64,000 bases of DNA, taken from contig CAWEUJ010000004.1 in the NCBI GenBank assembly GCA_963812205.1, forward strand, positions 1,257,315 through 1,321,314, written 5' to 3'. Of the stretch, positions 25,351 to 56,014 are shown piece by piece (position 1 is the stretch's first letter; each line of letters starts with the position of its first letter). Both the position numbers and the translations under genes were made by a program. The stretch comes from an uncultured Actinomycetes bacterium (GTDB taxonomy: Bacteria; Actinomycetota; Acidimicrobiia; IMCC26256; PALSA-610). The notes under the pieces are model-generated. The model saw nothing but the letters and a program-made list of their open reading frames with translations. It made no database searches and was not told the origin of the DNA.

Positions 25351-25536
25351 TCACATCACCGTCGGGCCCGGTCAGACATGTCGACCCCTCGCTGTGGTCC
25401 CCGTCCATCGTCGCCGGGGCCCGCCCGGCCAACGAGGGCCGAAGGACCCGACGACCCGGCCCGCTCGTCCCTGTCCGGCGACGCGTTCCTCCGTCATTGT
25501 GGGGAGCAGATCCGCAACAAGGAGTCACTCAGCGTG

Positions 25537-37816: not shown

Positions 37817-37925
37817 CGAACGCCTCCTCGTTGTGGCCGGGTCCAGCGTGGGCTGTTCCGGCCCCCGAAGCCAGAGCCGAGGGCCTCGGTCGGCGCGGAC
37901 GTTCGGCCCTACTCGCGGTGCACCC

Positions 37926-42179: not shown

Positions 42180-42383
42180 TCCGGCTCCCCTCGCCAGAGT
42201 GACGCGCTCGATCAGCGCGTTCATGGGTTCATCGTGGTGGAGCTACGTGTTGGCGGGCAGGGGCGATGCGCCGGGATGAGCAGGGCCTTTCGACCCGCGG
42301 CGACGGGGCGTCGGCCTCTCGTGAGCTCGGGGGTGGCTCCGTAGCGTCGGTGCGAGCACCGCCACGAGCGGCGTATCCGATCC

Positions 42384-43652: not shown

Positions 43653-43653
43653 G

Positions 43654-44559
43654 ATGCTGATCGTCGCGGCCCTCGGTGGCAACGCCTTGCTCCGGCGCAA
43701 CGAATCCCTCGACTCCGAGGTGACGCAGCGCAACGTGAAGGTCGCCGCTGCGGCGCTCTCGGACATCGCTCGCGAGCATCAACTCGTCATCACGCACGGG
43801 AACGGGCCGCAGATCGGATTGCTCGCGTTACAGAGCGAGGCGTTCCGCGACGTGCGCACCTACCCGCTCGACGTGCTCGGCGCGGAGAGCGAAGGCATGA
43901 TCGGCTACCTGCTCGAACGCGAGCTCGGGAACGCGCTCGGCGAACGCCCGGTCGCTTCACTCATCACGCAGACGGTGGTCGACGCGCTCGACCCGGCCTT
44001 CCGGCGGCCGACCAAGCCAATCGGTCCTGTCTACGACGCAGCCCGGGCGAAGTCGTTGGCGCGAGAGCGCGGCTGGACGGTCGCGGCCGACGGCAAGGGC
44101 TGGCGGCGCGTGGTCGCGTCGCCGACCCCGCGCTCGATCGTCGAGCTGCCCACCATCCGCTTGCTGCTCGACCACGGAGTACTCGTCATCTGCGCCGGCG
44201 GCGGAGGGGTACCGGTGGTGGTCGACTCGGCCGGCGTCCGCCACGGCGTCGAGGCGGTCGTCGACAAGGACCTGGCCAGCGCGTTGCTCGCACGGCAGCT
44301 CTCGGCGGATCTCTTGCTGTTGTTGACCGACGTGCCCGCGGTCGAGGTCGAGTGGGGGACGCCGGCCGCCCGGCCTCTGGGAACGGTCACGCCCGCCGAG
44401 TTGCAGCGATACCGGTTCGCGGCGGGTTCCATGGCGCCCAAGATCGAGGCCGCGTCGGCGTTCGTCCGGTCGACGCGCTGCCGGGCCACGATCGGGGCGC
44501 TCGGCGACGCCTACGCACTCGTTCAGGGAACGGCGGGAACCTCGGTGGTGAGCGGCTAA
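43654..44559 (+). CDS. arcC: Carbamate kinase
   Basis: 301 aa. It has MLIVAALGGNALL...ITHGNGPQIG...GGGGVPVV...AVVDKDLAS. Confidence 0.9.
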   Translation: MLIVAALGGNALLRRNESLDSEVTQRNVKVAAAALSDIAREHQLVITHGNGPQIGLLALQSEAFRDVRTYPLDVLGAESEGMIGYLLERELGNALGERPVASLITQTVVDALDPAFRRPTKPIGPVYDAARAKSLARERGWTVAADGKGWRRVVASPTPRSIVELPTIRLLLDHGVLVICAGGGGVPVVVDSAGVRHGVEAVVDKDLASALLARQLSADLLLLLTDVPAVEVEWGTPAARPLGTVTPAELQRYRFAAGSMAPKIEAASAFVRSTRCRATIGALGDAYALVQGTAGTSVVSG

Positions 44560-44573
44560 GAGGCCTGACGGAC

Positions 44574-44587: not shown

Positions 44588-44638
44588 CCTCCGGCTGCCG
44601 GGCGCTACTGTCGGGCGGCCGGCGACCGGGGAAATTCG

Positions 44639-45298
44639 ATGGGTATTCGCGTATTCTTGTTGGACGACCACGAGATCGTTCGGCGCGGCGTTCGTGAGCT
44701 GCTCGAAGCGGACGACGAGATCGAGGTGGTCGGCGAGGCGAGTACGGCCGAGGAGGGCGTGGCCCGGATCCCGGCGACCAAGCCCGACGTGGCGATCATC
44801 GACATGCGGCTGCCCGACGGCAATGGCGTCGAGGTCTGCCGGGAGGTGCGCTCGCTCGACGGCTCGATCCAGTGCCTGATCCTCACGTCGTTCTCCGACG
44901 ACGAAGCGCTGTTCGACTCGATCATGGCCGGCGCGGCCGGCTATCTGCTCAAACAGATCAAAGGGACCGATCTCGTCGACGCCGTCCGGAGAGTCGCGGG
45001 CGGCCAGTCGTTGCTCGACCCGAGTGTGACGGCCCGCGTGCTCGAGCGCCTGCGCACCGGTCCCGAGGAAGACCCGCGACTCGCGCGGCTCACCGACCAG
45101 GAACGCAAGATCCTCGATCTCATCGCCGAAGGCCTCACGAATCGCCAAATCGGTGAGCGCCTGTTCCTCGCCGAGAAGACGGTGAAGAACTACGTGTCGA
45201 ATCTGCTCTCGAAGCTCGGCATGGAACGCCGCACGGAGGCGGCCGTTTTCGCGGCCAAGTTGTCGGCCCAGCGAAGGCCCGAGGCCCCTCCCGAATAG
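44639..45298 (+). CDS. devR: NarL/LuxR-family response regulator, DevR/DosR orthologue
   Basis: 219 aa, collinear with M. tuberculosis DevR as I recall it (VFLLDDHEIVRRG, PDVAIIDMRLPDGNG, LTDQERKILDLIAEGLTNRQIGERLFLAEKTVKNYVSNLLSKLGMERRTEAAVFAA). Confidence 0.85.
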   Translation: MGIRVFLLDDHEIVRRGVRELLEADDEIEVVGEASTAEEGVARIPATKPDVAIIDMRLPDGNGVEVCREVRSLDGSIQCLILTSFSDDEALFDSIMAGAAGYLLKQIKGTDLVDAVRRVAGGQSLLDPSVTARVLERLRTGPEEDPRLARLTDQERKILDLIAEGLTNRQIGERLFLAEKTVKNYVSNLLSKLGMERRTEAAVFAAKLSAQRRPEAPPE

Positions 45299-45347
45299 GT
45301 GACCATCGGCCCTGGTCCCCGCGCGCGCCCCGGTGGATCATCCGTAA

Positions 45348-45800
45348 ATGAGCACGAAGATCGACCGTAGAACCGGTCTCGAAGAGCTCGATCGGGACGA
45401 ATGTCTCCGGTTGGCCGCTTCGGCGCCGCTCGGTCGCCTCGCCGTCGTCGTCGCCGGGCGACCGCTCGTGTTTCCGGTGAACTTCGCGTTCGACGGAGAC
45501 GCGATCGTGTTGCGCACCGACGCGGGCACCAAGCTCCACGGCGCGCGCAACGGCCCGGTCGCCTTCGAGTGCGACGGTATCGACGGCTTGTTCCACACGG
45601 GCTGGAGTGTCCTCGTCCTCGCCGTCGCCGAAGAAGTCCGCGATCCCGTCGAGATCGCCCGGCTCGAGCAGCTGCCGCTCGGTCCGTGGTGCCCCGGTCC
45701 GCATTCGACCTGGTTGCGGCTCCGGAGCCAATCGGTCACCGGGCGTCGCATCCCGCCCCACGGTCGCACCATTACGGAGGAGGAGTTGCCATGTCGTTGA
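45348..45800 (+). CDS. Pyridoxamine 5'-phosphate oxidase-like (PPOX/Pyridox_ox_2, probably F420/FMN-binding) protein, paralogue 1
   Basis: 150 aa. It has ELDRDECLRLAASAPLGRLAVVVAGRPLVFPVNFAFDGDAIVLRT...GWSVLVLAVA. Three further genes in the window share this pattern. Confidence 0.8.
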   Translation: MSTKIDRRTGLEELDRDECLRLAASAPLGRLAVVVAGRPLVFPVNFAFDGDAIVLRTDAGTKLHGARNGPVAFECDGIDGLFHTGWSVLVLAVAEEVRDPVEIARLEQLPLGPWCPGPHSTWLRLRSQSVTGRRIPPHGRTITEEELPCR

Positions 45801-46432
45801 ACATCATGGTCCTGGAGAGTGACCGGGGCGCCGCCGACAAGGCCGTCCAGGATCTGACCGATGCCGGCCATGTCGTGCTCAGATGCCACGAGCCCGATGC
45901 GCCCGCATTTCCGTGCCGTGGGCTCGAGGATCAGTCGGCATGCCCGCTGCGCTCACATGCCATCGACGTGGCGCTGACAGTGCGGTCGCGGCCGCGTGCG
46001 CAACCGGCGCCGCACGAGGACGGCGTGCGCTGTGCGCTCATGCATCGCGTCCCGCTCGTCGTCGCCGGCCCCGCGGTACTCGATCCGTACGACGAGTACG
46101 AGATGCGCGTGCTGGATCGCGGCGACGACGTCGTCGGCGCGATCGAAGAGGTCGCGGCGAGCGAGCTGCCGCGTCACACCCGTATCGCGACCGAGGCGCT
46201 GGCCGCGTCGCGAACCCCGAACGCGGCGCTGGCCGGCGCCCGGGCCTCGGTGACACGCCGGCGGGGCAGTCTCCTCGCATCGGTCAGCGGTCTCGACAGC
46301 CTCACGCCCCACCAACGCGATGCGGCGATCGTGCGGATGCTGGCGAAGCTACGGGAGTACGACTCGTCGGCGCGAGGCATCGACGTCATTCACGAGGGCT
46401 CCGGGGCGAGTGGGACGCGCCACTCGATCTGA
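45791..46432 (+). CDS. Hypothetical protein (receiver-like N-terminal beta-alpha pattern, no recognisable motif)
   Basis: 213 aa from MSLNIMVLESDRGAADKAVQDLTDAGHVVLRCH, with GGAGGAGG RBS. It overlaps the PPOX stop by 10 nt and the convergent kinase 3' end by 43 nt. Confidence 0.5.
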   Translation: MSLNIMVLESDRGAADKAVQDLTDAGHVVLRCHEPDAPAFPCRGLEDQSACPLRSHAIDVALTVRSRPRAQPAPHEDGVRCALMHRVPLVVAGPAVLDPYDEYEMRVLDRGDDVVGAIEEVAASELPRHTRIATEALAASRTPNAALAGARASVTRRRGSLLASVSGLDSLTPHQRDAAIVRMLAKLREYDSSARGIDVIHEGSGASGTRHSI

Positions 46433-47418
46433 GTCCCGCCCGCGCTCGACAACCGGCTGACCTCGCACGCTCCGCCGAACGTGATGGCGCGCTCGGCCAT
46501 GTTCTGCAAGCCGCTTCCTACGTCGTGACCGTCGATCCCGACCCCGTTGTCGGACACCACCAAGACGAGTTGGCGCGGGCCGGCCGCGAGTTCGACGCTG
46601 ACCTTCGACGCGTGCGCGTGCCGGGTCACGTTGCTGAGCGCCTCGCGCAATGTCGCGAGGACGTGTTCTCGGATCGCGTTCGTCGTGACCGTGTCGACGG
46701 GACCGTCGAACGAAACCGACGGCTCGAAGCCCAATGCGCGGCCGGCTTCGCGAGCGACGTCGAGGACGTCGTCGCGCAGGCTCTGCGCAAGGGGCCGTCG
46801 CGTGTGCAACGCGAAGATCGACGACCGTATCTCGCGGATCGTCGTGTCGATCTCGTCGATCGCGAGCTGCACGCGCTCGAGGGCCGGGTCGTTCGGCCGG
46901 CTGAGCGCGGCTTGCAAGGAGAGCCCGACCGCGAAGAGCCGTTGGATCACCGTGTCGTGGAGATCGCGGGCGATGCGTTCCCGGTCGTCGACCAGTGCAA
47001 GCTCCTCGTGCGCGCGTCGGAGCTCCTCGTCGGCCGCCCGCCGTTCCGCGACGTCGCGGATCATCACCACGACGAGGAGCCCGTTCTCGGTGCGCAGCGG
47101 GCTCAAGCTGATCTCGACGGGGAACTCGGTACCCGAGTGGCGGCGCCCGTGCAGATCGAGCCCGGTTCCCATCGATCGGGTGCGGGGATGCGCGGCGTAT
47201 TCCGCTCGCCGGCCGGCGTGCGGGGCGCGCACGGCCTCGGGCAGCAGGACGTCTACCGACTCACCGACGAGGTCTGCGAGCGCATACTCGAAGAGTCGCT
47301 CGACCATCGGGTTGGCGAAGAGGATCGTTCCCTTCTCGTCCACCACGAGGATGCCGTCGGGAGCCGCATTGAGAGTCTGGCGGAGCACATCGTCCGAGAG
47401 CGGTGATTCCGATGACAT
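46390..47418 (-). CDS. Soluble PAS-HisKA_3-HATPase sensor histidine kinase
   Basis: 342 aa from MSSESPLSDD, with GAGGAA RBS. It has a PAS domain (APDGILVVDEKGTILFANPMVERLF), the H-box DRERIARDLHDTVIQRLF, and an ATPase domain (VSDNGVGI...GSGLQNM). No TM or GAF domains. Confidence 0.85.
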   Translation of the reverse strand: MSSESPLSDDVLRQTLNAAPDGILVVDEKGTILFANPMVERLFEYALADLVGESVDVLLPEAVRAPHAGRRAEYAAHPRTRSMGTGLDLHGRRHSGTEFPVEISLSPLRTENGLLVVVMIRDVAERRAADEELRRAHEELALVDDRERIARDLHDTVIQRLFAVGLSLQAALSRPNDPALERVQLAIDEIDTTIREIRSSIFALHTRRPLAQSLRDDVLDVAREAGRALGFEPSVSFDGPVDTVTTNAIREHVLATLREALSNVTRHAHASKVSVELAAGPRQLVLVVSDNGVGIDGHDVGSGLQNMAERAITFGGACEVSRLSSAGGTQIEWRVPLAPEPS

Positions 47419-47464
47419 CGTTCCTCGGGCCTTTGTCACTGCACGTTGGTAACGCGAGGATCTT

Positions 47465-47481
47465 GGTCCAGAATTTGGACC
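47465..47481. promoter_or_regulatory. Perfect palindrome GGTCCA-GAATT-TGGACC in the divergent kinase/PPOX intergenic region
   Basis: Read directly. It is a 17-bp site with 6-bp perfect arms, in the most AT-rich patch of the intergenic region. It lies 47 nt from the kinase start and 60 nt from the PPOX start. Confidence 0.4.
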
Positions 47482-47540
47482 CGGGTTGATTGGCCTTTCG
47501 GCCCTGCCCGGTGGCGGGGTCACCGTCGAGACTAGACACG

Positions 47541-47984
47541 ATGACGGACGCGAGCATCTTGTCCAATCCCGGTGATGGATTCGTCCCGTTGACGGACGCG
47601 GAATGCCGGGCCCTGCTCGGGACACGGACCTTCGGTCGCATCGGGATGACGAGCGGCGGCCTGCCCGTGATCCTCCCGGTCCGCTACATCTACGCCGACG
47701 ACACGATCACGTTCCGCACCGGCAACGATGTGAAGCTGCGGGCCGCGGGGAACGGTGACGTGCTCGCGTTCGAGGTCGACGCGTACGACGCCGGGGCCGA
47801 CGACGGTTGGACGGTGCTCGTTCTGGGCCGAGCGACTGTGCTCACGACCGAGCACGAGCACGACGGGCTTCCGACGCTCGATCCGCCCTCCACCGGCAGA
47901 CCTCGCAGCCATTACGTGCGGCTGAATTGCGAACTCCTCAGTGGCCGGCGTCTCACGCCGCCGATCGCCACCCGGAGGGCCTGA
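47541..47984 (+). CDS. PPOX-like protein, paralogue 2
   Basis: It has LTDAECRALLGTRTFGRIGMTSGGLPVILPVRYIYADDTITFRT...GWTVLVLGRA. Confidence 0.8.
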   Translation: MTDASILSNPGDGFVPLTDAECRALLGTRTFGRIGMTSGGLPVILPVRYIYADDTITFRTGNDVKLRAAGNGDVLAFEVDAYDAGADDGWTVLVLGRATVLTTEHEHDGLPTLDPPSTGRPRSHYVRLNCELLSGRRLTPPIATRRA

Positions 47985-48077
47985 GGTGAACGACGGCAAC
48001 GAGCCGGTGTGTGGCCCCCGAGCAACCGCGCGCGTCGTACCCCCGAGCGGCAAGCGAAGCTGAGCGAGCCGCCGGGC

Positions 48078-49607
48078 ATGAGTGCTGCCCAGGTCGCCGA
48101 GCAGCGGACGCGCTTCGGCGAATGGCTGCAGCGCCGGGCGCCGCAGACGCCGATCGTGGTGGTCGAGACGCACGTATCGATCGTGGCGTTGGGTGACGAT
48201 CGCGTGTGGAAGCTCAAGAAGGCGGTGCGGTTTCCGTTCATCGACCTCTCGACTCCCGAGCTGCGCCGAGCGAACGCCGAACGAGAAGTCAGTGTGAACC
48301 GGCGGTTCGCACCGGACGTGTACCTCGGCGTGGTCCCGCTGGAAGATCGCGGGGGAGAGGTGGTCGACACCGTCGTCGAGATGCGCCGGATGCCCGACGA
48401 GCGTCGCCTCGCGTCGTTGGCCCGCACGGCGGACCCGACCGCGTGTGTCGACGCGATCGCACAGGAGCTCGCGCGCATGCACCGCGCGGCGCCGACGAGC
48501 CCGGAGATCGACCGAGCCGGGATGCCGGCGACCCTGCTGCGCTTGTGGTCGAGCACCGTCGACGAGCTGAACCTGTCTGCGGGATCGGTCCTGGACGCTG
48601 ACCTTCTCGGTCGTGTCGATCGCCTCGGCCGGGAGTATCTGGCTGGTCGCACTCCGCTCTTGGAAGCGCGCGTGGCCGGCGGTCGGATCCGAGACGGGCA
48701 CGGCGACCTGCTCGCCGACGACGTGTTCTGTCTCGACGACGGCCCGCGACTCCTCGACTGCCTCGAGTTCGACGACGCCCTCCGATTCGGCGACGTCGTC
48801 GCCGACGTGGCGTTCCTGGCGATGGACCTCGAGCGGCTGGGGCGCGGCGACCTCGCGCGCCGCCTGCTCGACCGGTACCGATCGGCGAGCGGCGACAGCT
48901 GGCCCCCCTCGCTCGCCGACTATTACGTCGCCTACCGCGCCCTCATTCGCTCGAAGGTGGCGTGTCTGCGGGTCGACGCCGATCCGGTCGCCGCCGCGTC
49001 GGCCCGGCGGTTGCTGGCGCTCGCCGCCGACCACCTCACGCGCGGACGCGTCCGCCTCGTGCTGGTCGGCGGCGCGCCGGCGACGGGCAAGACGACACTG
49101 AGCCGCGAGCTGGAACGCAGTACCGGATGGCGGGCCCTGCACTCGGACGAGATCCGCAAACACCTCGCGGGGCTGCAGCCGACGACATCGGCCGCGAGCG
49201 TGCTCGATCACGGTTTGTACGCGCCGCAATGGAACGCACGCACGTACGACGCACTCCTCGAATCGGCGCGGGGCCTGCTCGCTTCGGGAGAGAGCGTGAT
49301 CCTCGACGCGTCGTGGAGCGACCGGGATCGTCGCGCCGACGCGCAGCGCGTCGCGGAGACGACGTCGAGCGAGCTCGTCTCCTTCTGCCTGAGTGCCCCG
49401 CCCGAGGTGGCCGAGGCGCGCGTGGCCGAGCGGGCGACCGCCCGCGTCGAGGGCTCGGCCGCCGACGCGTCGGACGCGACGGCCGCGGTCAGCGCCGCGG
49501 TCCGAGCCCGGTTCGACCCGTGGCCGTCGGCGTTCGTTCTCGACGCCACCCGCGCTCCGGCCGTCCTCGCGTCCGAAGCGATCGAACGCCTCGACGAGGT
49601 GACGTGA
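48078..49607 (+). CDS. Bifunctional APH-like phosphotransferase / P-loop (AAA_33) kinase, Rv2004c-like
   Basis: It has an APH catalytic-loop-like segment DGHGDLLADDVFCLDDG and the C-terminal Walker A GGAPATGKTT. This architecture matches the DosR-regulon protein Rv2004c (from memory). Confidence 0.7.
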   Translation: MSAAQVAEQRTRFGEWLQRRAPQTPIVVVETHVSIVALGDDRVWKLKKAVRFPFIDLSTPELRRANAEREVSVNRRFAPDVYLGVVPLEDRGGEVVDTVVEMRRMPDERRLASLARTADPTACVDAIAQELARMHRAAPTSPEIDRAGMPATLLRLWSSTVDELNLSAGSVLDADLLGRVDRLGREYLAGRTPLLEARVAGGRIRDGHGDLLADDVFCLDDGPRLLDCLEFDDALRFGDVVADVAFLAMDLERLGRGDLARRLLDRYRSASGDSWPPSLADYYVAYRALIRSKVACLRVDADPVAAASARRLLALAADHLTRGRVRLVLVGGAPATGKTTLSRELERSTGWRALHSDEIRKHLAGLQPTTSAASVLDHGLYAPQWNARTYDALLESARGLLASGESVILDASWSDRDRRADAQRVAETTSSELVSFCLSAPPEVAEARVAERATARVEGSAADASDATAAVSAAVRARFDPWPSAFVLDATRAPAVLASEAIERLDEVT

Positions 49608-49610
49608 TCG

Positions 49611-50009
49611 TCACGCGTTCGGGTGGAGCCGGCGCCCTTCGATCTTCTCGATGGTGACGTGCACGAGATCGTGCCGCTCGCTTGCGGGCCAGAACTCCTC
49701 GAGCCGGGCCGAAGCCTCGGTGAGTGCCGGTGTCGCGACGCGCGCCTCGTGCGCGTGCCCGACCACGAGCACGCTCCAGCCGCCGTCGCGGTCGTCGACC
49801 TCGAAGGCCACGCGGGTGTCGAGCGCCGCCGCCATCAACTTCGTGCCCGGGTCGGTCCGGAACACGACCTCGTCCTTGGCGACCGCGTAGTAGACGGGCA
49901 GGATGACCGGCTCGTCGGCGATCTTCGTCCCGATCCGCCCGAACGAGTTGGCCCGGAGCAATTCCATGCACTCGTCAGGCCCGATCCGGTCGAGTCCTCG
50001 GCTGGTCAT
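49611..50009 (-). CDS. PPOX-like protein, paralogue 3
   Basis: It has IGPDECMELLRANSFGRIGTKIADEPVILPVYYAVAKDEVVFRT...GWSVLVVGHA. Confidence 0.8.
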   Translation of the reverse strand: MTSRGLDRIGPDECMELLRANSFGRIGTKIADEPVILPVYYAVAKDEVVFRTDPGTKLMAAALDTRVAFEVDDRDGGWSVLVVGHAHEARVATPALTEASARLEEFWPASERHDLVHVTIEKIEGRRLHPNA

Positions 50010-50027
50010 GGCGCCTCCTTCGTGTCG

Positions 50028-50042
50028 GTGGCAGCGTGCCAC
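50028..50042. promoter_or_regulatory. Perfect palindrome GTGGCA-GCG-TGCCAC just upstream of PPOX paralogue 3
   Basis: Read directly, 19-33 nt upstream of the start at 50009. It could be an operator or a 5'-UTR hairpin. Confidence 0.25.
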
Positions 50043-50157
50043 ATCCAGAACCCTGCCTGCTCTGGTCCCCGCCAAATAGAGGCGACCGGCCCTGGTTCTC
50101 GTGCCGCTCGCGATTGACGATCGAAGCGCAACGATGCTCCGACGAGAGGAGACGGGG

Positions 50158-51201
50158 ATGAAGGCACTCGTGTATCACGGCCCGGGCCGCAAAGCGTGGG
50201 AGGAAGTGCCGAAGCCGGCACTCGTCGCCGACACCGATGCGATCGTACGTGTCGACGCGGTAACGATCTGCGGTACCGACCTCCACATCCTGAAGGGGGA
50301 TGTGCCCGAGGTCGTCGACGGTCGGGTGCTCGGCCACGAAGCGGTCGGTACCGTCGAAGAGGTGGGCGCGGGTGTGAAGAACGTCAAGCCCGGCGACCGG
50401 GTGCTGGTGTCGTGCATCACGTCGTGCGGCGCGTGCCGGTTCTGCCGTGAAGGTCACTATGGCTTGTGCATCGGTGGTGGCGGCTGGATCCTCGGTCATC
50501 TGATCGACGGCACGCAGGCCGAGTACGTGCGCGTGCCCTTCGCCGACACGTCGACGTATCCCGTACCGAACGGGGTCTCCGACGAGGACACGCTGATGGT
50601 CGCCGACATCTTGCCCACCGGCTACGAGGTCGGCGTTCTGAACGGCCATGTCTCTCCCGGCGACGTCGTCGCGGTCGTCGGCGCGGGACCGATCGGGCTC
50701 GCGGCGATCACCGGGGCGCGGCTGTACAGCCCGGGCCACATCGTCGCGATCGATCTGGCGCCGTCACGGCTCGAGGCCGCGAAGCAGTTCGGGGCCGACG
50801 TCGTGGTCGACCCGGCCCACGAGGACCCGCTCACGGTCGTGCGGAGCCTGACGAACGGCCTCGGCGCCGACGTCGCCATCGAGGCGGTCGGTACTCCGGC
50901 CACGTTCGAGCTGACCGTCTCACTGGCCCGCTCCGGAGGTCACATCGCGAACATCGGTGTGCACGGCGAGCCGGCGACGCTGCATCTCGAGGAGCTGTGG
51001 ATCAAGGACGTGACGATCACGACCGGCCTCGTCGACACGTCGTCCACGCCGACGTTCCTGAAGCTGCTCGCGGGACGTCAGGTCGACGCCGGTCGATTCG
51101 TCACGCATCACTTCGCACTCGACGAGTTCGAAAAGGCCTACGACGTCTTCGCCCGCGCGGGCGAGACCGGCGCGTTGAAGGTCGTGTTGCAGCGGCATTG
51201 A
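50158..51201 (+). CDS. Zinc-dependent alcohol dehydrogenase (MDR family)
   Basis: It has MKALVYHGPG...ICGTDLHILKG...GHEAVGTVEEVG, a structural-Zn Cys cluster CGACRFC, and the Rossmann GAGPIGL. GAGGAG RBS upstream. Confidence 0.9.
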   Translation: MKALVYHGPGRKAWEEVPKPALVADTDAIVRVDAVTICGTDLHILKGDVPEVVDGRVLGHEAVGTVEEVGAGVKNVKPGDRVLVSCITSCGACRFCREGHYGLCIGGGGWILGHLIDGTQAEYVRVPFADTSTYPVPNGVSDEDTLMVADILPTGYEVGVLNGHVSPGDVVAVVGAGPIGLAAITGARLYSPGHIVAIDLAPSRLEAAKQFGADVVVDPAHEDPLTVVRSLTNGLGADVAIEAVGTPATFELTVSLARSGGHIANIGVHGEPATLHLEELWIKDVTITTGLVDTSSTPTFLKLLAGRQVDAGRFVTHHFALDEFEKAYDVFARAGETGALKVVLQRH

Positions 51202-51232
51202 CCCGAGTCCGGGGCGGGCGCGGCCCTGATGT

Positions 51233-51787
51233 TCACTCGGCGCGGTGCAGGGTGTTGTGATCGGTGTGGGGAAACGGCTCGTCGAACTCCGTCATGTCGA
51301 GCATCGTGATCTCGTGGTACGTCCAGGTGCCGTCGTCGTTGATCGTGATCGTCACCGCGTAGCTCGAGGTCGACGCGTTCGCAGCCAAGTACTTGTTCTG
51401 GCCAATGGTGTAGTTGGGATCGTCGGCCGCCGCTTCGAGGGAGAAGGTCGTAGCGTCGTGCGGGACCGTTCCGCCCGCGAGCACCGTGATGCCACGCGGT
51501 ACGACGAAGCCGCGGAGGGTCTCACCTGTCGCGCCGTCCCAGAGCCAGTATCCGACCTCGGTGTGAAACGGGTTCTCCTCGTCACCGCGCCACATCGCGG
51601 TCTTGTAGTCGAGGCCGTAGAGCGATTGGCGCCCGTTTTGCACCGGACCGAACGGTTTGAAGCTCAACTTCTCGCGATACGGCGTCGCGAGCACCGCGTG
51701 CTGCGTGTGCGAGTAGGCGGTGTCGAGACCGCCCTCGCCGTACCAGTCGCCGGCCAGCGGCGCGAGCGGCCCCCAATGGTCGGCCAT
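51233..51787 (-). CDS. Heme-binding beta-barrel (nitrobindin/THAP4-like, DUF1794) protein
   Basis: 184 aa from MADHWGPLAPLAGDWYGEGG. The pattern ...YREKLSFKPFGPV...LYGLDYKT...FHTEVGYWLWD resembles the nitrobindin fold family. Confidence 0.6.
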   Translation of the reverse strand: MADHWGPLAPLAGDWYGEGGLDTAYSHTQHAVLATPYREKLSFKPFGPVQNGRQSLYGLDYKTAMWRGDEENPFHTEVGYWLWDGATGETLRGFVVPRGITVLAGGTVPHDATTFSLEAAADDPNYTIGQNKYLAANASTSSYAVTITINDDGTWTYHEITMLDMTEFDEPFPHTDHNTLHRAE

Positions 51788-51819
51788 GTCGATGCTCCGT
51801 TCGGTCGTTCGCCGAGCGA

Positions 51820-52257
51820 TCAGGGAATGATCAGCAACGGGCGGTTCAGGTGATGCGACAGGTGGTGGCTCGTGCTCCCGAGGATCAACTCGGCGAAGCC
51901 GCCGCGGCCCCGGCGGCCGGTGACCACGAGATCGGCGTCTTCCTTCTCGGAGAGCGCGATGATCGCCGGTGCCGGCGAACCGTCGATCACCACTGCCCGA
52001 AACGGAACATCCGCTCGCTCGAGGGGAGCGCACCATTCGTGCAGGATCTTCTCGCGTAGCTCCGCCCGATCCGCGTCCGACGGCGCCGGCAGCGGTGCCG
52101 GAATCGGGGCGAAGCCGAAGCCCCCGTCGGCGTATATCGGCATCTCGAGCGCGTATACGGCGATGATCTCCGCGTCGAGCGCCTTCGCGTGCGCGGCACA
52201 CCATTCGAGCGCTCGAGTCGCCGGCGCCGATCCGTCTACTCCCACGATGATTTTCAT
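51820..52257 (-). CDS. Universal stress protein (single Usp domain)
   Basis: 145 aa. It has MKIIVGVDGS...DLVVTGRRGRGGFAELILGSTSHHLSHH (ATP-binding G-2x-G-9x-G(S/T) motif). Confidence 0.85.
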   Translation of the reverse strand: MKIIVGVDGSAPATRALEWCAAHAKALDAEIIAVYALEMPIYADGGFGFAPIPAPLPAPSDADRAELREKILHEWCAPLERADVPFRAVVIDGSPAPAIIALSEKEDADLVVTGRRGRGGFAELILGSTSHHLSHHLNRPLLIIP

Positions 52258-52292
52258 ACCCTGATCTTGTCGCGTCGGCGAGCCCGTCGTGA

Positions 52293-52306
52293 GGGGCGAA
52301 AGACCC
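52293..52306. promoter_or_regulatory. DosR-box-like inverted repeat GGGGC-GAAA-GACCC upstream of the USP/nitrobindin operon
   Basis: It lies 36-49 nt upstream of the USP start at 52257. It has the same half-site spacing as the M. tuberculosis DosR consensus GGGAC-N4-GTCCC, and the arms are mutually complementary at 4 of 5 positions. Confidence 0.35.
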
Positions 52307-52360
52307 TGAGCGGCGGGGCTCCGGCCCCTGACGGCCGAAGCCCCCGGGAACGAGGGGGCG

Positions 52361-52384
52361 AGCTACAGGTAGAGCTACAGGTAG
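52361..52384. repeat. 12-bp tandem duplication (AGCTACAGGTAG x2) spanning the stop codon of PPOX paralogue 4
   Basis: Read directly. The second copy contains the TAG stop (52375-52377, minus strand). Confidence 0.8.
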
Positions 52385-52815
52385 TCGCCGGCACGGAAGT
52401 GCCAGAGCGGCTCCGCGCCGTGGAGCTCGCGCCCGCTGATCGCCCACGGGTCGACGAGCAGCCAGGCGTCCCTGCCCGCGAGCCACGGCTCCGAGTCGTA
52501 CTGCTCCCGAAACGCATCGGAGTTGGGCGTGGCATGCAACAGATCGCCGCGGACGAGGACCGACCAGCCCTCGTGATGCCCGGGATCGATGCTGTCGACC
52601 TCGAAGGCCACGCTGGTGGGTGCTTGCTCGACGAGGTTGCCGGGCCGTGTCCGCAGCGCGATCAGGGTCCCAGACGGAGCATCGACGACGCGGTAGTTCA
52701 CGGGCAGGATGACCGGGCCCTCTTCGGCAATGAACGCGATGCGACCGATGCTCTCTCTCCGCAAACGCTGCAGGCATTCTTCGTCCGAGAGTGTTTCGAG
52801 CTCGCCGTCAGTCAT
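52375..52815 (-). CDS. PPOX-like protein, paralogue 4
   Basis: It has LSDEECLQRLRRESIGRIAFIAEEGPVILPVNYRVV...GWSVLVRGDL. The start overlaps the tandem-USP stop by 8 nt. Confidence 0.8.
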   Translation of the reverse strand: MTDGELETLSDEECLQRLRRESIGRIAFIAEEGPVILPVNYRVVDAPSGTLIALRTRPGNLVEQAPTSVAFEVDSIDPGHHEGWSVLVRGDLLHATPNSDAFREQYDSEPWLAGRDAWLLVDPWAISGRELHGAEPLWHFRAGDYL

Positions 52816-53614
52816 GGCCGGTCGCCTCGGTCATGTGATGGGTCACGAGTAACGGGCACGGCGCGAGATGCAAGACGCCCATCGTCACGCTGCCGAGCGC
52901 CACCCGCGCCAGGCCGTGCCGGGCTCGGCAGTTGATCGCCACGATCGCCGCCGGGAGCTCCTCGGCGTAGTCGGCGAGCGCACCGGGCACGTAGCTACTG
53001 CGCAGCAGCGCCGACCGCACGTGATCCGAGCCCCCGAACGGAGCGGTCACGAGGCCGAGGAGCTCGTCGGGATGCTCCGAGTTCTCCACGTCGAGCGGAT
53101 GCGTCACGACGGCGACGTCGACGTCCAGACCCAGCAGGGCTGACCATTCACCGGCCGCGGCGGCGAGCTCTTCGGACCCTTCGAGACCGTCGGAGCACGC
53201 CAGGAGGTGTGAGGAACGCGTCAGGAAGTCGGCCCGGCAATGCTGCCCGACGAGGAGTATCGGTCGTCCGGCGTGCCGTATCACCTCCTCGGCCACGCTG
53301 CCGAGTGCCGCCCAGCGCAGTCGACCGCGGCCGTGCGTGGTCATGCAGATGACGCGATCGTCGTCGCCCTCGACCACCTCGACGAGTGCCGCTACCGGGT
53401 ACGTGGTCTTCGTGCCCACGATCTCGACCGGAACCCGCGCAGTGCGCGCCGCGCATTCTTCGAGGTACTCGGTCGGCTCGAGGGGTCCGTAGTGTTGCGC
53501 CGAGACCAGCAACAGACCGCCGCCGACCCGTTCCGCCAGCGTCTGCGCCACCGGCAAGGCGCGCTCGGCGAACTCGGATCCGTCGAGCGGGACGACGAAC
53601 GTCTTGGGTGCCAT
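52808..53614 (-). CDS. Tandem universal stress protein (two Usp domains)
   Basis: 268 aa. It has MAPKTFVVPLDGSEFAERALPVA...TTHGRGRLRWAALGSVAEEVIRHA plus a second Usp half. Confidence 0.85.
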   Translation of the reverse strand: MAPKTFVVPLDGSEFAERALPVAQTLAERVGGGLLLVSAQHYGPLEPTEYLEECAARTARVPVEIVGTKTTYPVAALVEVVEGDDDRVICMTTHGRGRLRWAALGSVAEEVIRHAGRPILLVGQHCRADFLTRSSHLLACSDGLEGSEELAAAAGEWSALLGLDVDVAVVTHPLDVENSEHPDELLGLVTAPFGGSDHVRSALLRSSYVPGALADYAEELPAAIVAINCRARHGLARVALGSVTMGVLHLAPCPLLVTHHMTEATGHD

Positions 53615-53620
53615 GTCGAT

Positions 53621-53664: not shown

Positions 53665-53713
53665 GCGCGCGGCCTGTGGCTTCGACGCTAGGCGCGATGC
53701 CGGCACGGGTTCA

Positions 53714-53749
53714 GGGGATCACGCCCCCGCCTGACGGGACGAAGGGCCC
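53714..53749. promoter_or_regulatory. Two adjacent DosR-box-like elements: GGGGA-TCAC-GCCCC (53714-27) and GGGAC-GAAG-GGCCC (53736-49)
   Basis: They lie in the divergent region between the tandem USP (start 53614) and the 746-aa unknown (start 53774). They have the architecture GGGnn-N4-GnCCC. Confidence 0.3.
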
Positions 53750-53773
53750 GAGGGTCGCCGGCGATCCGATTGA

Positions 53774-56014
53774 ATGCCCGGCGTGAGCGATGGCGACGCA
53801 CGCGGATACAGCCTCGGCGCGGGCCCGCTGCAGGTTCGTCTGACGGCCGGCGGCGTGTTACGTGTTGGATGGGACGAGCCCGACTGGCTCGGGCCCGCAA
53901 CGCTGCGAGTGCCGGGACCCCCCACGATGCCCGCGGTCTCGGGCTCCGACGCGTGGCTCACCGTGGAGTCCGGCGGTATCCGCAGTGAGGTGCGCGCCCT
54001 CTCCGGAGAACCGGTCGTCGTCGTCCGCCTCGAGGCGCTCGTCGCGCGCTCGGGCGCGGGCTCCGGGAACTTCGCGGAACCCGCGATCGCGTGGCACTTC
54101 GCGCCCGCCGAGCGCGCCGAGCGCGGCGCCCCGGAAGGGATGCGCGCGTTCGGTCACCAGTACACGGAGTTCGCGTTGGCGGTGTTCAGCGACGCCGCGT
54201 TGTCGCGTTGGCGACTCTTGCCGTTCCGACCGGCCGTGGTGATGCCGCTCGGGGTGGTCGCGCCCGACGGCCGGACGATGTTGCTCGCGCCGCTCACCGC
54301 GTTCCACGAGCAGGTGATCGCGGTGCCCGCCGGCCGGGAGCAATCCGGGGCCGGTCTGCGCGCGGGCTGGCACGGCGACATCGACGACGTGGAAGCAGGA
54401 TTCGCGACCGAGCTCGCGATCATCGCCGGCGATGGAGTGCGCGACTGCTTCGCGCGCTGGGCTCGCTTGCTCCGGGAGGCATCCGGCGTGGCCGCACCGT
54501 CGCGAGACGCCGATGTGCTCGGGACCCGGCTCTCCTACTGGACCGACAACGGCAGCGCGTACTGGTATCGCACCGAGCCGGGACTCGACACCGCGTCGAC
54601 GATCGTCGCGGCGGTCGATGATCTCGAGGCGCGCGGTGCGCCGGTCGGTGCGGTCCAGCTCGACTCGTGGTGGTACCCGCACGAAGTGTTGCGCCCGTTC
54701 GACACGGACGAGTGGGTTGTCCCGCCGACCGGCATGGTTCGCTGGGAACCCCGGGCCGACGTGCTGCCCGACGGCATTGCCGCGTTGCGCGAACGGCTCG
54801 GGCGACGTCCGCTCGTCGCGCACTGCCGGCATCTCTGCGCGCAGTCTGCGTACGCCGGCGACATGGCGATGTGGACCGACGGCGACCGCGCGCATCCGCA
54901 GGACGCCGAGTTGTACGAGCGTCTTCTCGACCAGGCGGTCGCGTGGGGCGTCGAAGTGTTCGAGCACGACTGGCTCATCGAGTGCTTTCTCGGCGTGCGC
55001 GGCCTGCGCGCGCCCGGCCGGGCCGCGGCCTGGCAGGAGGGCATCGACGCCGCGCTCGAAGCGCGCGATCTCCACGCGCAGTGGTGCATGGCATCGCCCG
55101 CCGACTTCGCGCAGACCAGCCGGCTGCGAAACGTCACCTCGATCCGCACGAGCGGCGACCACGGCTACATGGTCGGCCCCGAGGTGTTGTGGGCCTGGTT
55201 CCTGCACACCAACGTGATGGCGCGCGCGCTCGGCCAGTGGCCCTACAAGGACGTGTTCCACTCCGCCCGCACCTCCGAGACGCGCGAGGTCGAGGCGTTG
55301 CTCGCGGCGCTTTCGGCGGGTCCGGTCGGCATCGGTGACCGGATCGGCGCCGCCGACGTCGACCTGATCCGGCGGACATGCCGCGCCGACGGCGTGCTCG
55401 TACGCCCCGACGTGCCGATCGCCGCGATCGATCGCGCCGCTTTCACCGCTCCCGTATGGTCGGGCGAACTGATCGTCGCGAGTACGCACTCGCAGCACTC
55501 CGCCGGGCGGTGGGCGTACGTCACAACGTGCAACGTGGGATCCGACGAATCTCGATCGGCGCGGGTGTCCCTTGCCGACCTCGGTGAGGACCGTCCGGAG
55601 ACGCAGGAGGTCGCGGTCTACGACTGGCGGAGCGGCCGGGTCGAGGTGATCCCCGGCGACGGCGGATTCGAGGTCACGCTCGCGCGGGCCGAATGGGACT
55701 ACCGGGTGGTCGCGCCCGTGCTCGCGAACGGCATTGCGGTGCTCGGTGACCCGACGCTCTATGCCTGCGCAGGCGACACGCGCGTGGCCCGCGTCACCGA
55801 TGAGCGCGACCGGGTGGTCGTCACGTTGTTGGGCGCGGGCGAGCGCGTGCACGTGCGCGGTTGGGCGCGCCGGCCGGTCGCGGCACGAGCCTGGTCGCCG
55901 GCTGCCGGCGGTGCCGAGGTCGAGGTGACCAACGCCGCCGATACCGGCGAGTGGGACGTCGAGGTCTCCGTCCCCGGAGCCGGCTGGGCGAAGCTGTACG
56001 TCCGGTTGGCCTGA
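53774..56014 (+). CDS. Large conserved hypothetical protein (possible TIM-barrel glycoside-hydrolase-like core)
   Basis: 746-aa ORF with normal amino-acid composition for this genome. The segments VQLDSWWYPHE and VEVFEHDWL resemble beta-strand-end acidic motifs of (beta/alpha)8 glycosidases, but I cannot assign a family. Confidence 0.5.
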   Translation: MPGVSDGDARGYSLGAGPLQVRLTAGGVLRVGWDEPDWLGPATLRVPGPPTMPAVSGSDAWLTVESGGIRSEVRALSGEPVVVVRLEALVARSGAGSGNFAEPAIAWHFAPAERAERGAPEGMRAFGHQYTEFALAVFSDAALSRWRLLPFRPAVVMPLGVVAPDGRTMLLAPLTAFHEQVIAVPAGREQSGAGLRAGWHGDIDDVEAGFATELAIIAGDGVRDCFARWARLLREASGVAAPSRDADVLGTRLSYWTDNGSAYWYRTEPGLDTASTIVAAVDDLEARGAPVGAVQLDSWWYPHEVLRPFDTDEWVVPPTGMVRWEPRADVLPDGIAALRERLGRRPLVAHCRHLCAQSAYAGDMAMWTDGDRAHPQDAELYERLLDQAVAWGVEVFEHDWLIECFLGVRGLRAPGRAAAWQEGIDAALEARDLHAQWCMASPADFAQTSRLRNVTSIRTSGDHGYMVGPEVLWAWFLHTNVMARALGQWPYKDVFHSARTSETREVEALLAALSAGPVGIGDRIGAADVDLIRRTCRADGVLVRPDVPIAAIDRAAFTAPVWSGELIVASTHSQHSAGRWAYVTTCNVGSDESRSARVSLADLGEDRPETQEVAVYDWRSGRVEVIPGDGGFEVTLARAEWDYRVVAPVLANGIAVLGDPTLYACAGDTRVARVTDERDRVVVTLLGAGERVHVRGWARRPVAARAWSPAAGGAEVEVTNAADTGEWDVEVSVPGAGWAKLYVRLA

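What the first reader, a model, noticed from the sequence alone, without database searches (positions are those of the whole stretch)
44639..53614. DevR/DosR-centred dormancy island with four PPOX paralogues and an uncoupled PAS kinase
Within 9 kb lie: a close DevR orthologue; a soluble PAS-HisKA_3 kinase that is not co-transcribed with it (opposite strand, two genes away) and has no GAF domains, unlike DevS/DosT; four paralogous PPOX-like (F420/FMN split-barrel) proteins; two USP genes; an Rv2004c-like kinase; a Zn-ADH; and a nitrobindin-like heme barrel. Together with arcAC, the frameshifted USP at 25.5 kb and the eRF1-like gene, this mirrors the mycobacterial DosR regulon gene classes. The sensor architecture and the PPOX expansion differ from it. 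A shared GGGGACCAG(A/G)GC 12-mer (minus-strand sense) also occurs near 45312-45326 and 50060-50075.
Basis: partly seen in the sequence, partly recalled or inferred. Interest (0 to 1): 0.6.

Follow-up and report, generated by a model that had tools for sequence, protein, structure and literature searches.

The report
DevR stress regulon with PAS-type sensor
This stretch of an uncultured, probably Acidimicrobiia, actinobacterium carries a relative of the tuberculosis DevR/DosR "dormancy" switch with its docking sites in front of stress genes. Its sensor kinase has a FixL/FG214-like (probably haem-binding) PAS domain where mycobacteria have haem-GAF domains, a layout that turns out to be common in this bacterial class.

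Summary
All the named genes are present: a DevR orthologue, a soluble PAS-HisKA_3 kinase, four Pyridox_ox_2 (PPOX) genes, two USP genes, a Zn-ADH, a THAP4/nitrobindin-like barrel and an AAA_33 kinase. The 12-mer is real, at 45309-45320 and 50059-50070.

1. DosR/OsdR-type boxes (GGGNC-NWWN-GNCCC) lie in the promoter gaps. Some are conserved in sequence and position in related genomes. Genome-wide, such boxes also precede nrdZ-, hrp1- and ctpF-like genes.
2. The kinase is not really "uncoupled". In 18 of 82 DevR-bearing genomes of the same class, a PAS-type kinase lies within 5 kb of devR, usually on the opposite strand. In another 41 genomes a kinase matching only the transmitter does; the two checked carry a single GAF domain.
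3. The PAS domain best matches the experimentally haem-binding FG214 (PDB 10JX) and FixL. The proximal histidine is invariant, but the FixL distal arginines are absent.
4. The four PPOX genes are old paralogues, not local duplications.

An unannotated protein with four invariant cysteines and a receiver-like fold belongs to the conserved devR core.

This is a new variant of a known system. This scan found the same kind of island before on other Acidimicrobiia-like DNA. No expression or biochemical data could be obtained.

The parts
42283..42296 (.). DevR/OsdR-type box GGGCC-TTTC-GACCC, between a divergent membrane-protein gene and arcA
   Evidence: Exact match to GGGNCNWWNGNCCC in an intergenic gap.
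42384..44559 (+). arcA (arginine deiminase) and arcC-like amino-acid kinase, directly upstream of devR on the same strand
   Evidence: Pfam ADI E=1e-114 and AA_kinase E=9e-24. The gap to devR is 79 nt.
44639..45298 (+). DevR/DosR orthologue (REC + LuxR/GerE HTH)
   Evidence: Pfam. PDB 3C3W DevR at E=1e-77, 57% identity, with the recognition-helix segment AEKTVKNYVS identical.
45299..45312 (.).
   Evidence: The equivalent exact boxes, CCAGGGACCATCGGCCC and CCAGGGACCATGGTCCC, sit at the same position in relatives L003 and L094.
45348..45800 (+). PPOX1 (Pyridox_ox_2 split-barrel flavoprotein-like)
   Evidence: Pfam E=4e-24. Orthologues at 79% (L003) and 69% (L094) identity next to devR. Nearest PDB entry is 6ECI, an FMN-binding PNPOx-related protein.
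45791..46432 (+). 213-aa protein with four invariant cysteines: receiver-like N-terminal fold plus an alpha/beta C-terminal domain. It overlaps the PPOX1 stop by 10 nt and the kinase 3' end by 43 nt.
   Evidence: No Pfam or NCBIfam hit. 627 representative homologues. C32, C42, C51 and C81 are invariant. AF2 pLDDT 93.5. Receiver domains are the main fold matches, weakly (TM about 0.55-0.6 of the target). Often close to devR in the class.
46390..47418 (-). Soluble PAS-HisKA_3-HATPase_c sensor kinase (342 aa), convergent with the devR unit
   Evidence: Pfam. The ATP-binding domain best matches DevS/DosT (3ZXO, 3ZXQ). The PAS domain best matches FG214 (10JX) and FixL. H67 is invariant in 105/105 sequences.
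47491..47504 (.). DevR-type box with one mismatch (TGGCC-TTTC-GGCCC), between the kinase and PPOX2
   Evidence: Its reverse complement, GCAGGGCCGAAAGGCCA, lies about 50 nt upstream of the kinase start in L003, L093 and L094, identical in L003 and one or two bases different in the others; each copy has one mismatch to the pattern.
47538..47984 (+). PPOX2
   Evidence: Pfam E=2e-19. Forms its own clade with L094 and L093 orthologues, support 100/98.
48078..49607 (+). About 509-aa protein: unassigned N-terminal domain plus AAA_33 P-loop kinase domain ('Rv2004c-like' by architecture only). The ORF is open from 48009.
   Evidence: Pfam AAA_33 E=6e-24. The N-terminus has no family. Homologues are about 505 aa and labelled APH-family/predicted kinase; the database gene call is 509 aa.
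49611..50012 (-). PPOX3
   Evidence: Pfam E=6e-22. Clade with L003, L093 and L094 orthologues, support 96/96.
50059..50070 (-). Second copy of the 12-mer GGGGACCAGAGC, in the PPOX3/ADH divergent gap. It contains one GGGAC half-site only.
   Evidence: No box with one mismatch or fewer is found here.
50158..51201 (+). Zn-dependent alcohol dehydrogenase
   Evidence: Pfam ADH_N + ADH_zinc_N.
51233..52257 (-). USP (51820-52257) followed by a THAP4/nitrobindin-like haem barrel (51233-51799); a likely operon
   Evidence: Pfam Usp E=1e-29 and THAP4_heme-bd E=2e-21. The gap between them is 20 nt.
52293..52306 (.). DevR-type box GGGGC-GAAA-GACCC, 36-49 nt upstream of the USP start
52375..53614 (-). Tandem USP (52808-53614) overlapping PPOX4 (52375-52815) by 8 nt; a likely operon
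   Evidence: Pfam. PPOX4 forms a clade with the L093 orthologue, support 99/98.
53736..53749 (.). DevR-type box GGGAC-GAAG-GGCCC, between the tandem USP and the 746-aa gene. A weaker box-like dyad lies at 53714-53727.
   Evidence: The weaker dyad has two mismatches (sequence read).
53774..56014 (+). 746-aa protein of unknown function, divergent from the USP operon and sharing the box-bearing gap
   Evidence: Only a weak Raffinose_syn match. No NCBIfam hit.
25436..26350 (+). Outlying regulon member: box GGGCC-GAAG-GACCC (25436-25449) upstream of a tandem USP whose N-terminus is in another frame
36782..37909 (-). Outlying candidate member: baeRF_family3 (eRF1-like) gene with a one-mismatch box at 37896-37909
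   Evidence: Pfam E=2e-24. Box.

Best explanation
This is the core of a DevR/DosR (OsdR)-type two-component stress regulon in an uncultured actinobacterium, inferred to be Acidimicrobiia.

The proposed mechanism has three steps.
1. A small cytoplasmic kinase senses O2, NO, CO or redox state through a FixL/FG214-like PAS domain. That domain probably holds haem b on the invariant His67.
2. The kinase autophosphorylates its HisKA_3 histidine and passes the phosphate to Asp55 of DevR.
3. DevR~P binds GGGNC-N4-GNCCC dyads. These lie upstream of arcA-arcC(-devR), PPOX1 and the 4-Cys protein, the kinase and PPOX2 with the AAA_33 kinase, USP and nitrobindin, and tandem USP and PPOX4. Further targets lie elsewhere in the genome. 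The kinase gene itself carries a box, which would form a positive feedback loop.

What is shown here: the domain architectures, homology to DevR and to the DevS/DosT transmitter, the boxes with their promoter-gap positions and their conservation, and the conserved kinase-devR linkage.

What is inferred: haem binding, the nature of the signal, phosphotransfer, DNA binding and induction.

The four PPOX-like proteins are separate, anciently diverged regulon members of unknown substrate.
For: DevR:
- 57% identical to M. tuberculosis DevR, with an identical recognition-helix segment and the acceptor Asp aligned. This is like OsdR, which is 61% identical and binds DevR sites (PMC5069765).

Boxes:
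- GGGNC-[GCT]WW[GCA]-GNCCC occurs 32 times in 4.1 Mb. 21 copies lie outside called genes, against about 25% uncalled DNA, and 5 lie in this window.
- In 41000-56500, 5 of 7 sites with one mismatch or fewer fall in the roughly 6% intergenic DNA.
- The kinase-upstream and devR|PPOX1 boxes recur at the same positions in L003, L093 and L094.
- The boxes match the Streptomyces consensus AGGGCCGATCGGCCCT.
- Genome-wide targets include a class II RNR, CBS-pair proteins, a P-type ATPase and tandem USPs. From my own knowledge, these classes are in the M. tuberculosis DosR regulon.

Kinase:
- The ATP-binding domain's best solved matches are DevS and DosT.
- It is the only complete DevS-like kinase in the assembly; the one other hit, on contig C5, is a truncated copy without an ATPase domain.
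- It is also the only one in three single-contig relatives: G390, G091 and G302.
- 18 of 82 DevR-bearing genomes of the class have a PAS-type kinase within 5 kb of devR.

PAS domain:
- Best matches are FG214 (10JX, experimentally haem b with proximal H156), then FixL and DosP.
- H67 aligns with the proximal His and is invariant in 105/105 sequences. M83 aligns with FG214 M172.
Against: - There is no expression, binding or cofactor data.
- The FixL distal residues R220 and R206 and the FG214 distal His175 are not conserved; the query has L87, E73 and G86 there. The ligand chemistry cannot be read from FixL, and haem binding is not proven.
- No box with one mismatch or fewer lies directly upstream of devR. 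Autoregulation would have to act through the arcA box or the kinase box.
- The loose dyad alone is not over-represented in the window. The case rests on where the sites lie and on their conservation.
- My position-weight matrix was built from the same sites it scored.
- The assembly is 87% complete, so a GAF-type kinase on missing DNA cannot be excluded.
Confidence: 0.65

Rival explanations
1. The PAS kinase is not DevR's cognate sensor. It would signal to another NarL-type regulator, or have no partner, while DevR is phosphorylated by an unassembled GAF-type kinase or by acetyl phosphate.
For: The kinase and devR are on opposite strands and two genes apart. The genome has other NarL-type regulators, including a 42%-identical paralogue. 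The assembly is 87% complete. In the same class, 41 genomes have a kinase matching only the transmitter next to devR; the two checked carry a single GAF domain.
Against: The PAS-type kinase lies within 5 kb of devR in 18 genomes of the class, 11 of them with gaps of 12-190 nt. No second DevS-like transmitter is found in three single-contig relatives. The transmitter is closest to DevS/DosT. A conserved DevR-type box sits upstream of the kinase gene.
Confidence: 0.12
2. The PAS domain binds no haem. It would sense another ligand (a flavin, a metabolite, or protein-protein contacts), so the input is not O2, NO or CO.
For: FixL R220 and R206 and the FG214 distal His are not conserved. NCBIfam FixL and DosP models score far below their cut-offs: 65 against 850 bits, and 40 against 857 bits. 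PAS domains are very versatile.
Against: The six best-scoring solved PAS matches are FG214 and FixL chains, shown or named as haem-binding, followed by EcDOS/DosP. The His at the proximal position is invariant in 105/105 family members, together with R71, Y74, R81, M83 and G84.
Confidence: 0.25
3. The cluster is a generic stress-gene neighbourhood. The dyads are chance GC-rich palindromes, or sites of a different regulator, and not a DevR regulon.
For: The loose pattern with one mismatch is not enriched over shuffles in the whole window: 17 found against 23 expected. No sigma-70-like promoters or terminators help to define operons.
Against: The sites are concentrated in promoter gaps. They are conserved in sequence and position across genomes whose kinases are only 53-67% identical. 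The match to experimentally validated OsdR and DevR sites is close, and the DevR recognition helix is identical.
Confidence: 0.08

Closest known systems
Mycobacterium tuberculosis DevR (DosR) with DevS (DosS)/DosT and the DosR dormancy regulon
   Same: The regulator is 57% identical with an identical recognition-helix segment. The kinase has a HisKA_3/HATPase transmitter closest to DevS/DosT. The operator has the same GGGNC-N4-GNCCC dyad type. The target classes match: USPs, CBS-pair protein, class II RNR, P-type ATPase, eRF1-like protein and an Rv2004c-type kinase architecture.
   Different: The sensor is a single PAS domain (342 aa in total) where DevS/DosT have tandem GAF domains with haem in GAF-A. 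The kinase is convergent with devR and not co-transcribed with it. There are four PPOX-like genes, arcAC and a 4-Cys receiver-like protein in the core. No Acg-type nitroreductase or hspX was found within the finding's 9 kb.
Streptomyces coelicolor OsdR/OsdK and the SCO0167-SCO0219 region (PMC5069765)
   Same: This is a DevR orthologue outside mycobacteria. Its palindromic consensus is AGGGCCGATCGGCCCT. The regulon is clustered around the regulator and includes USPs, Zn-dehydrogenases and a PPOX gene (SCO0214).
   Different: OsdK is a DevS/DosT-like kinase, 41-42% identical to them, and is encoded in the osdR-osdK operon. Here the kinase is PAS-type and on the opposite strand.
FixL (Bradyrhizobium/Sinorhizobium) and FG214 (Fimbriimonas ginsengisoli, PDB 10JX) haem-PAS sensors
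   Same: The PAS domain aligns without gaps to both. The proximal His is conserved (FixL H200, FG214 H156), and so is the Met equivalent to FG214 M172.
   Different: The FixL distal arginines and the FG214 distal His are absent. The output is a HisKA_3 transmitter feeding a NarL/DevR-type regulator. FixL uses a HisKA transmitter feeding FixJ, and FG214 carries a fused HTH.
Mycobacterium avium DosRS regulon (PMC11876180)
   Same: A PPOX-family gene (MAV_4110) lies next to dosR (MAV_4109), carries a DosR motif and is induced under low oxygen. Several USPs are also members.
   Different: M. avium has one PPOX gene and a dosT-like GAF-type sensor. Its regulon is rich in nitroreductases.

Membership tests
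DevR/DosR/OsdR response regulators | REC + LuxR/GerE HTH architecture with full-length similarity to DevR | tested here: met
   Pfam. PDB 3C3W at E=1e-77, residues 3-215 aligned, 57% identity.
DevR/DosR/OsdR response regulators | Conserved DNA-recognition helix and phospho-acceptor Asp | tested here: met
   AEKTVKNYVS is identical to DevR. The DNA-binding domain matches at 46/65 positions. D55 aligns with the DevR acceptor Asp in VAVLDVRLPDGNG.
DevR/DosR/OsdR response regulators | DosR-type palindromic boxes upstream of regulon genes | tested here: met
   Boxes lie in the promoter gaps and are conserved in relatives. They match the OsdR consensus. Binding itself was not tested.
DevR/DosR/OsdR response regulators | Induction of the regulon by hypoxia, NO or CO | not testable with these tools
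DevS/DosT sensor kinases | HisKA_3 + HATPase_c transmitter homologous to DevS/DosT | tested here: met
   Pfam. The best solved matches for the ATP-binding domain are DevS 3ZXO, 8SBM and DosT 3ZXQ, at E about 1e-15.
DevS/DosT sensor kinases | Tandem GAF domains with haem in GAF-A | tested here: not met
   There is no GAF domain; a single PAS domain is present. The three GAF loci I inspected in the assembly (four proteins) look like GAF-ANTAR proteins by eye and lack a kinase domain.
DevS/DosT sensor kinases | Encoded in one operon with devR | tested here: not met
   The kinase is convergent and two genes away. It is nevertheless a conserved neighbour of devR across the class.
FixL-type haem-PAS sensors | PAS fold with proximal His on the F-alpha helix | tested here: met
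   H67 aligns with the single His of FixL ...PDRSRHDSY... and with FG214 H156. It is invariant in 105/105 sequences.
FixL-type haem-PAS sensors | Distal-pocket Arg (FixL R220) and R206 that couple O2 binding to signalling | tested here: not met
   The aligned residues are L87 and E73. The residue numbering comes from my own knowledge of BjFixL.
FixL-type haem-PAS sensors | Haem b actually bound | not testable with these tools
   This needs spectroscopy of the purified protein.
Pyridox_ox_2 (PNPOx-like split barrel) | Pfam PF12900 above the gathering score | tested here: met
   All four proteins score 64-86 bits against a cut-off of 27.
F420-dependent PPOX-class enzymes | Match to an NCBIfam F420 PPOX model above its cut-off | tested here: not met
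   Only PPOX3 gives 20.9 bits to TIGR03618, whose cut-off is 79. An fbiC/cofH-like gene exists in the genome, so F420 is not excluded.
Rv2004c-type proteins | Sequence similarity to M. tuberculosis Rv2004c | not testable with these tools
Only the architecture is consistent: about 505 aa, with an unassigned N-terminal domain plus AAA_33.

The most novel reading that the evidence does not exclude
In Acidimicrobiia the DevR switch would be fed by a minimal soluble haem-PAS kinase that has replaced the haem-GAF module on the same DevS-type transmitter. The two sensor types alternate between families of one class. A conserved 4-Cys pseudo-receiver encoded in the devR operon, whose gene overlaps the kinase gene tail to tail, would act as a second, metal- or Fe-S-based redox input. 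It would dock on the kinase or on DevR to give a dual-input dormancy switch.
Probability: 0.15. Interest if true: 0.7.

Novelty: new variant of a known kind. Interest (0 to 1): 0.45.

Why it matters
DevR/DosR is the best-studied bacterial dormancy switch, and its haem-GAF sensors are drug and mechanism targets. This class offers a natural domain swap. Homologous DevS-type transmitters, 45-49% identical, next to near-identical DevR regulators carry either a single GAF domain or a FixL/FG214-like PAS domain.

That gives a clean system for asking how two unrelated haem folds drive the same HisKA_3 transmitter. It could also show what signal a widespread, mostly uncultured group of soil and water actinobacteria uses to enter a low-oxygen survival state.

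The work also defines a compact predicted regulon: USPs, four PPOX-like proteins, arcAC, class II RNR, CBS proteins and a P-type ATPase. It flags an unannotated 4-Cys protein family with 627 representative clusters that is genomically tied to devR. I found no paper describing DosR in Acidimicrobiia or a PAS-type DevS in the library searched.

Tried and rejected
- The sigma-70 promoter and terminator scan was uninformative: 0 promoters, and 2 terminators against 5 expected.
- NCBIfam gave no equivalog above its cut-off for any island protein apart from the generic PAS box.
- Rv2004c homology could not be tested. There was no Pfam hit for the N-terminal domain, no useful PDB hit and no paper with domain details.
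- I tested whether the 12-mer is an independent shared motif and rejected the idea. The 45309 copy overlaps the edge of the devR|PPOX1 box (…CCAGGGCCGATGGTCAC on the minus strand). The 50059 copy has only one GGGAC half-site and no box with one mismatch or fewer. What the shared GGGGACCAG does, if anything, remains unexplained.
- I tested 'local PPOX duplication' and rejected it using the tree.
- I looked for a GAF-type DevS in the assembly. GAF_2 matches 12 places; the three loci I inspected (four proteins) look like GAF-ANTAR proteins by eye, and the rest were not checked one by one. The stronger evidence is that no second DevS-like transmitter is found in the assembly. A truncated PAS-HisKA_3 paralogue without an ATPase domain also turned up on contig C5.
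- The HisKA_3 Pfam search of the genome found only 2 places. It is probably insensitive for so short a model, so I did not use it as a count of kinases.

Full report
**Gene content**

The window is uniformly about 69% G+C. I therefore picked genes by codon-position G+C and confirmed them with Pfam.
- a REC + GerE regulator (44639-45298, +);
- four Pyridox_ox_2 proteins (45348-45800 +, 47538-47984 +, 49611-50012 -, 52375-52815 -);
- an unannotated 213-aa ORF (45791-46432, +);
- a PAS-HisKA_3-HATPase_c kinase (46390-47418, -);
- a protein of about 509 aa with a C-terminal AAA_33 domain (48078-49607, +);
- a Zn-ADH (50158-51201, +);
- a THAP4/nitrobindin-type barrel (51233-51799, -);
- a single USP (51820-52257, -) and a tandem USP (52808-53614, -).

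arcA and a carbamate-type kinase lie directly upstream of the regulator on the same strand. The 12-mer GGGGACCAGRGC is exact at 45309-45320 and 50059-50070 on the minus strand. The expected count is 0.02, and these are the only two copies in the 4.1-Mb assembly.

**The regulator**

It matches M. tuberculosis DevR (PDB 3C3W) at E=1e-77 over residues 3-215. Identity is 57% overall and 46/65 in the DNA-binding domain. The segment AEKTVKNYVS, which includes the DNA-contacting helix, is identical, and the acceptor Asp is aligned. This is the same degree of relatedness as S. coelicolor OsdR, which is 61% identical and was shown to bind M. tuberculosis DevR sites (PMC5069765).

**Operator sites**

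The Streptomyces consensus is AGGGCCGATCGGCCCT. In this genome the pattern GGGNC-[GCT]WW[GCA]-GNCCC occurs 32 times. 21 copies lie outside my crude gene calls, which leave about 25% of the DNA uncalled, and five of those lie in this 64-kb window.

In 41000-56500, seven sites match GGGNCNWWNGNCCC with at most one mismatch. Five of them fall in the roughly 6% of that stretch that is intergenic:
- 42283, between a membrane-protein gene and arcA;
- 45299, between devR and PPOX1;
- 47491, between the kinase and PPOX2;
- 52293, upstream of the USP;
- 53736, between the tandem USP and the 746-aa gene.

Further sites lie at 25436 (before another tandem USP), at 12683 (before a SHOCT protein) and at 37896 (one mismatch, before a baeRF_family3 eRF1-like gene). 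Two more lie before a MacB/FtsX permease.

Conservation gives independent support. In L003, L093 and L094 the kinases are only 53-67% identical to the window's. Yet the kinase-upstream element GCAGGGCCGAAAGGCCA recurs in all three about 50 nt before the kinase start, identical in L003 and one or two bases different in the others, and each copy has one mismatch to the pattern. The devR|PPOX1 element recurs in L003 and L094 as a perfect box about 36-40 nt before the PPOX start.

Genome-wide, the best non-coding boxes precede a class II ribonucleotide reductase, three CBS-pair proteins, a P-type ATPase with a C-terminal extension, and tandem USPs. From my own knowledge, these are the nrdZ, hrp1, ctpF and USP classes of the M. 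tuberculosis DosR regulon.

Two caveats apply. The loose dyad alone is not enriched over shuffles in the window. My weight matrix was also built from the sites it scores. The argument therefore rests on position and conservation.

**The 12-mer**

On the minus strand the 45309 copy reads GGGGA-CCAGGGC…. Its 3' part is the left edge of the devR|PPOX1 box (CCAGGGCCGATGGTCAC). The 50059 copy has only one GGGAC half-site and no acceptable second half. It is therefore not a separate motif, although the shared GGGGACCAG remains unexplained.

**The kinase**

Its ATP-binding domain's best solved relatives are the DevS and DosT ATP-binding domains (3ZXO, 8SBM, 3ZXQ; E about 1e-15). Its PAS domain's best solved relatives are 10JX, then FixL, then E. 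coli DosP.

10JX is FG214 of Fimbriimonas ginsengisoli. That protein was shown experimentally to bind haem b, with proximal H156, distal H175 and a nearby M172 (bioRxiv 10.64898/2026.03.15.711900). In the ungapped alignments:
- query H67 falls on FG214 H156 and on the single His of the FixL F-helix;
- M83 falls on FG214 M172;
- the FG214 distal His position is G86;
- FixL R220 and R206, by my numbering, are L87 and E73.

Across 105 family members, H67, R71 and R81 are invariant, and Y74, M83, G84, G86 and L87 are conserved in 104 of 105. Haem binding through His67 is thus a well-founded inference. The distal chemistry, and therefore the ligand, cannot be read from FixL.

**Is the kinase DevR's partner?**

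The family is large. The search returned 6,632 matches at E <= 1e-10, and all 120 listed hits are 59-96% identical. Full-length ones share the same roughly 342-aa PAS architecture, and many carry the automatic label 'DevS'.

In a phylum-wide sample of 401 genomes, nearly all full-length matches lie in the window's own class. Elsewhere the best match in each genome covers only the transmitter, in ORFs of about 540-780 aa, the length expected of classical GAF kinases; two full-length matches outside the class (G024, G387) are weaker hits.

In a class sample of 151 genomes, 82 have a DevR orthologue. I cross-tabulated coordinates:
- 18 have a PAS-type kinase within 5 kb of devR: 10 convergent, 4 divergent, 4 co-directional. 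In 11 of these the gap is only 12-190 nt.
- 41 have a kinase matching only the transmitter: 34 divergent, 7 co-directional.
- 23 have none within 5 kb on the same contig.

I fetched six of the loci, five transmitter-only and one PAS-type. By Pfam, two transmitter-only kinases are single-GAF-HisKA_3-HATPase proteins of 361-378 aa, and one PAS-type kinase was confirmed.

The assembly (87% complete) has only one other DevS-like hit, a truncated PAS-HisKA_3 copy on contig C5 that lacks an ATPase domain. The three GAF loci I inspected (four proteins) look like GAF-ANTAR proteins by eye and have no kinase domain. Three single-contig relatives (G390, G091, G302) each have exactly one DevS-like transmitter, and it is the PAS-type kinase next to devR.

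The kinase is therefore a conserved neighbour of devR. The opposite-strand layout is the norm in this class and is not a sign of uncoupling. The class is inferred to be Acidimicrobiia for two reasons. Named homologues carry that label, and the class contains a large family of 1.1-Mb genomes.

**The PPOX genes**

The four are 35-40% identical to each other. Each has a much closer orthologue in other genomes:
- PPOX1: 79% and 69% identity, next to devR;
- PPOX2: 62%, next to the kinase;
- PPOX3: 66%, 59% and 52%;
- PPOX4: 65%.

In a maximum-likelihood tree, each window paralogue sits in its own clade with those orthologues. Support values are 86/90 for PPOX1, 100/98 for PPOX2, 96/96 for PPOX3 and 99/98 for PPOX4. 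They are old paralogues kept together in the regulon, not local duplications.

PPOX genes are already known members of the OsdR regulon (SCO0214). In M. avium, MAV_4110 lies next to dosR. The cofactor is open. None of the four reaches an F420-PPOX NCBIfam cut-off. The nearest solved structure is annotated as FMN-binding. An fbiC/cofH-like gene exists in the genome but is read in two frames.

**The 213-aa ORF**

It has no family assignment but 627 representative homologues. C32, C42, C51 and C81 are invariant. A confident AF2 model (pLDDT 93.5) has an N-terminal half that resembles receiver domains only weakly (Foldseek E about 1e-3; TM about 0.55-0.6 of the target). There is no Asp at the acceptor position, as read from the sequence against the predicted strands.

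In the class sample it occurs in 24 genomes. Twelve copies in other genomes, plus the window's own, lie within about 11 kb of devR on the same contig; five of these lie 94-1,040 nt downstream of devR on the same strand. The 43-nt tail-to-tail overlap with the kinase gene recurs in L094. It belongs to the conserved core, and its role is unknown. A metal or Fe-S redox module that talks to the kinase or to DevR is a speculation.

**Verdict**

The finding is real and the reading is mostly right. It is a new variant of a known system. The DevR regulon and operator are classical. The PAS (probably haem) sensor on a DevS-type transmitter is not described in the literature I could search.

Earlier follow-ups of this scan reached the same reading on other Acidimicrobiia-like DNA. 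One of those notes gave me the FG214 lead, which I then checked in the paper.

Nothing here was tested at the level of expression, cofactor or binding.

Noticed in passing
window 45791-46432: An unannotated 213-aa protein family with four invariant cysteines (C32, C42, C51, C81). It has a confident AF2 model whose N-terminal half is weakly receiver-like but lacks an acceptor Asp. It has 627 representative clusters and is often close to devR, sometimes directly downstream of it. A separate first-reader note (e1-3225249) covers it.
   Followed up: partly
G000:C4:1103207-1117920 (about 140-154 kb upstream of the window): A second cluster of DevR-type boxes, with paralogues of both USPs, a CBS-pair protein and a class II ribonucleotide reductase. 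It is probably another part of the same regulon.
   Followed up: partly
G000:C5:88519-89085 (locus L002): A paralogue of the PAS-HisKA_3 kinase, 47% identical over residues 16-206. It ends right after the HisKA_3 domain with no ATPase domain. It is either truncated, a pseudogene, or a kinase-less phosphotransfer module.
   Followed up: no
This pattern suggests indel errors in a long-read assembly and not true pseudogenes.
   Followed up: no
window 20411-20461: Two one-mismatch DevR-type dyads 37 nt apart lie just upstream of the likely start (about 20520) of a MacB/FtsX-type permease gene.
   Followed up: partly
class sample: Within one class, devR-adjacent kinases carry either a PAS domain or a single GAF domain on 45-49% identical transmitters. 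The two types are interspersed among families, even within the window's own family. This implies repeated sensor-module replacement.
   Followed up: partly
window 53774-56014: A 746-aa protein of unknown function, with only a weak GH36/raffinose-synthase-like stretch. It shares the box-bearing gap with the tandem USP operon. The box centre is only 31 nt from its annotated start, so the box more likely serves the USP side, or the true start lies further downstream.
   Followed up: no
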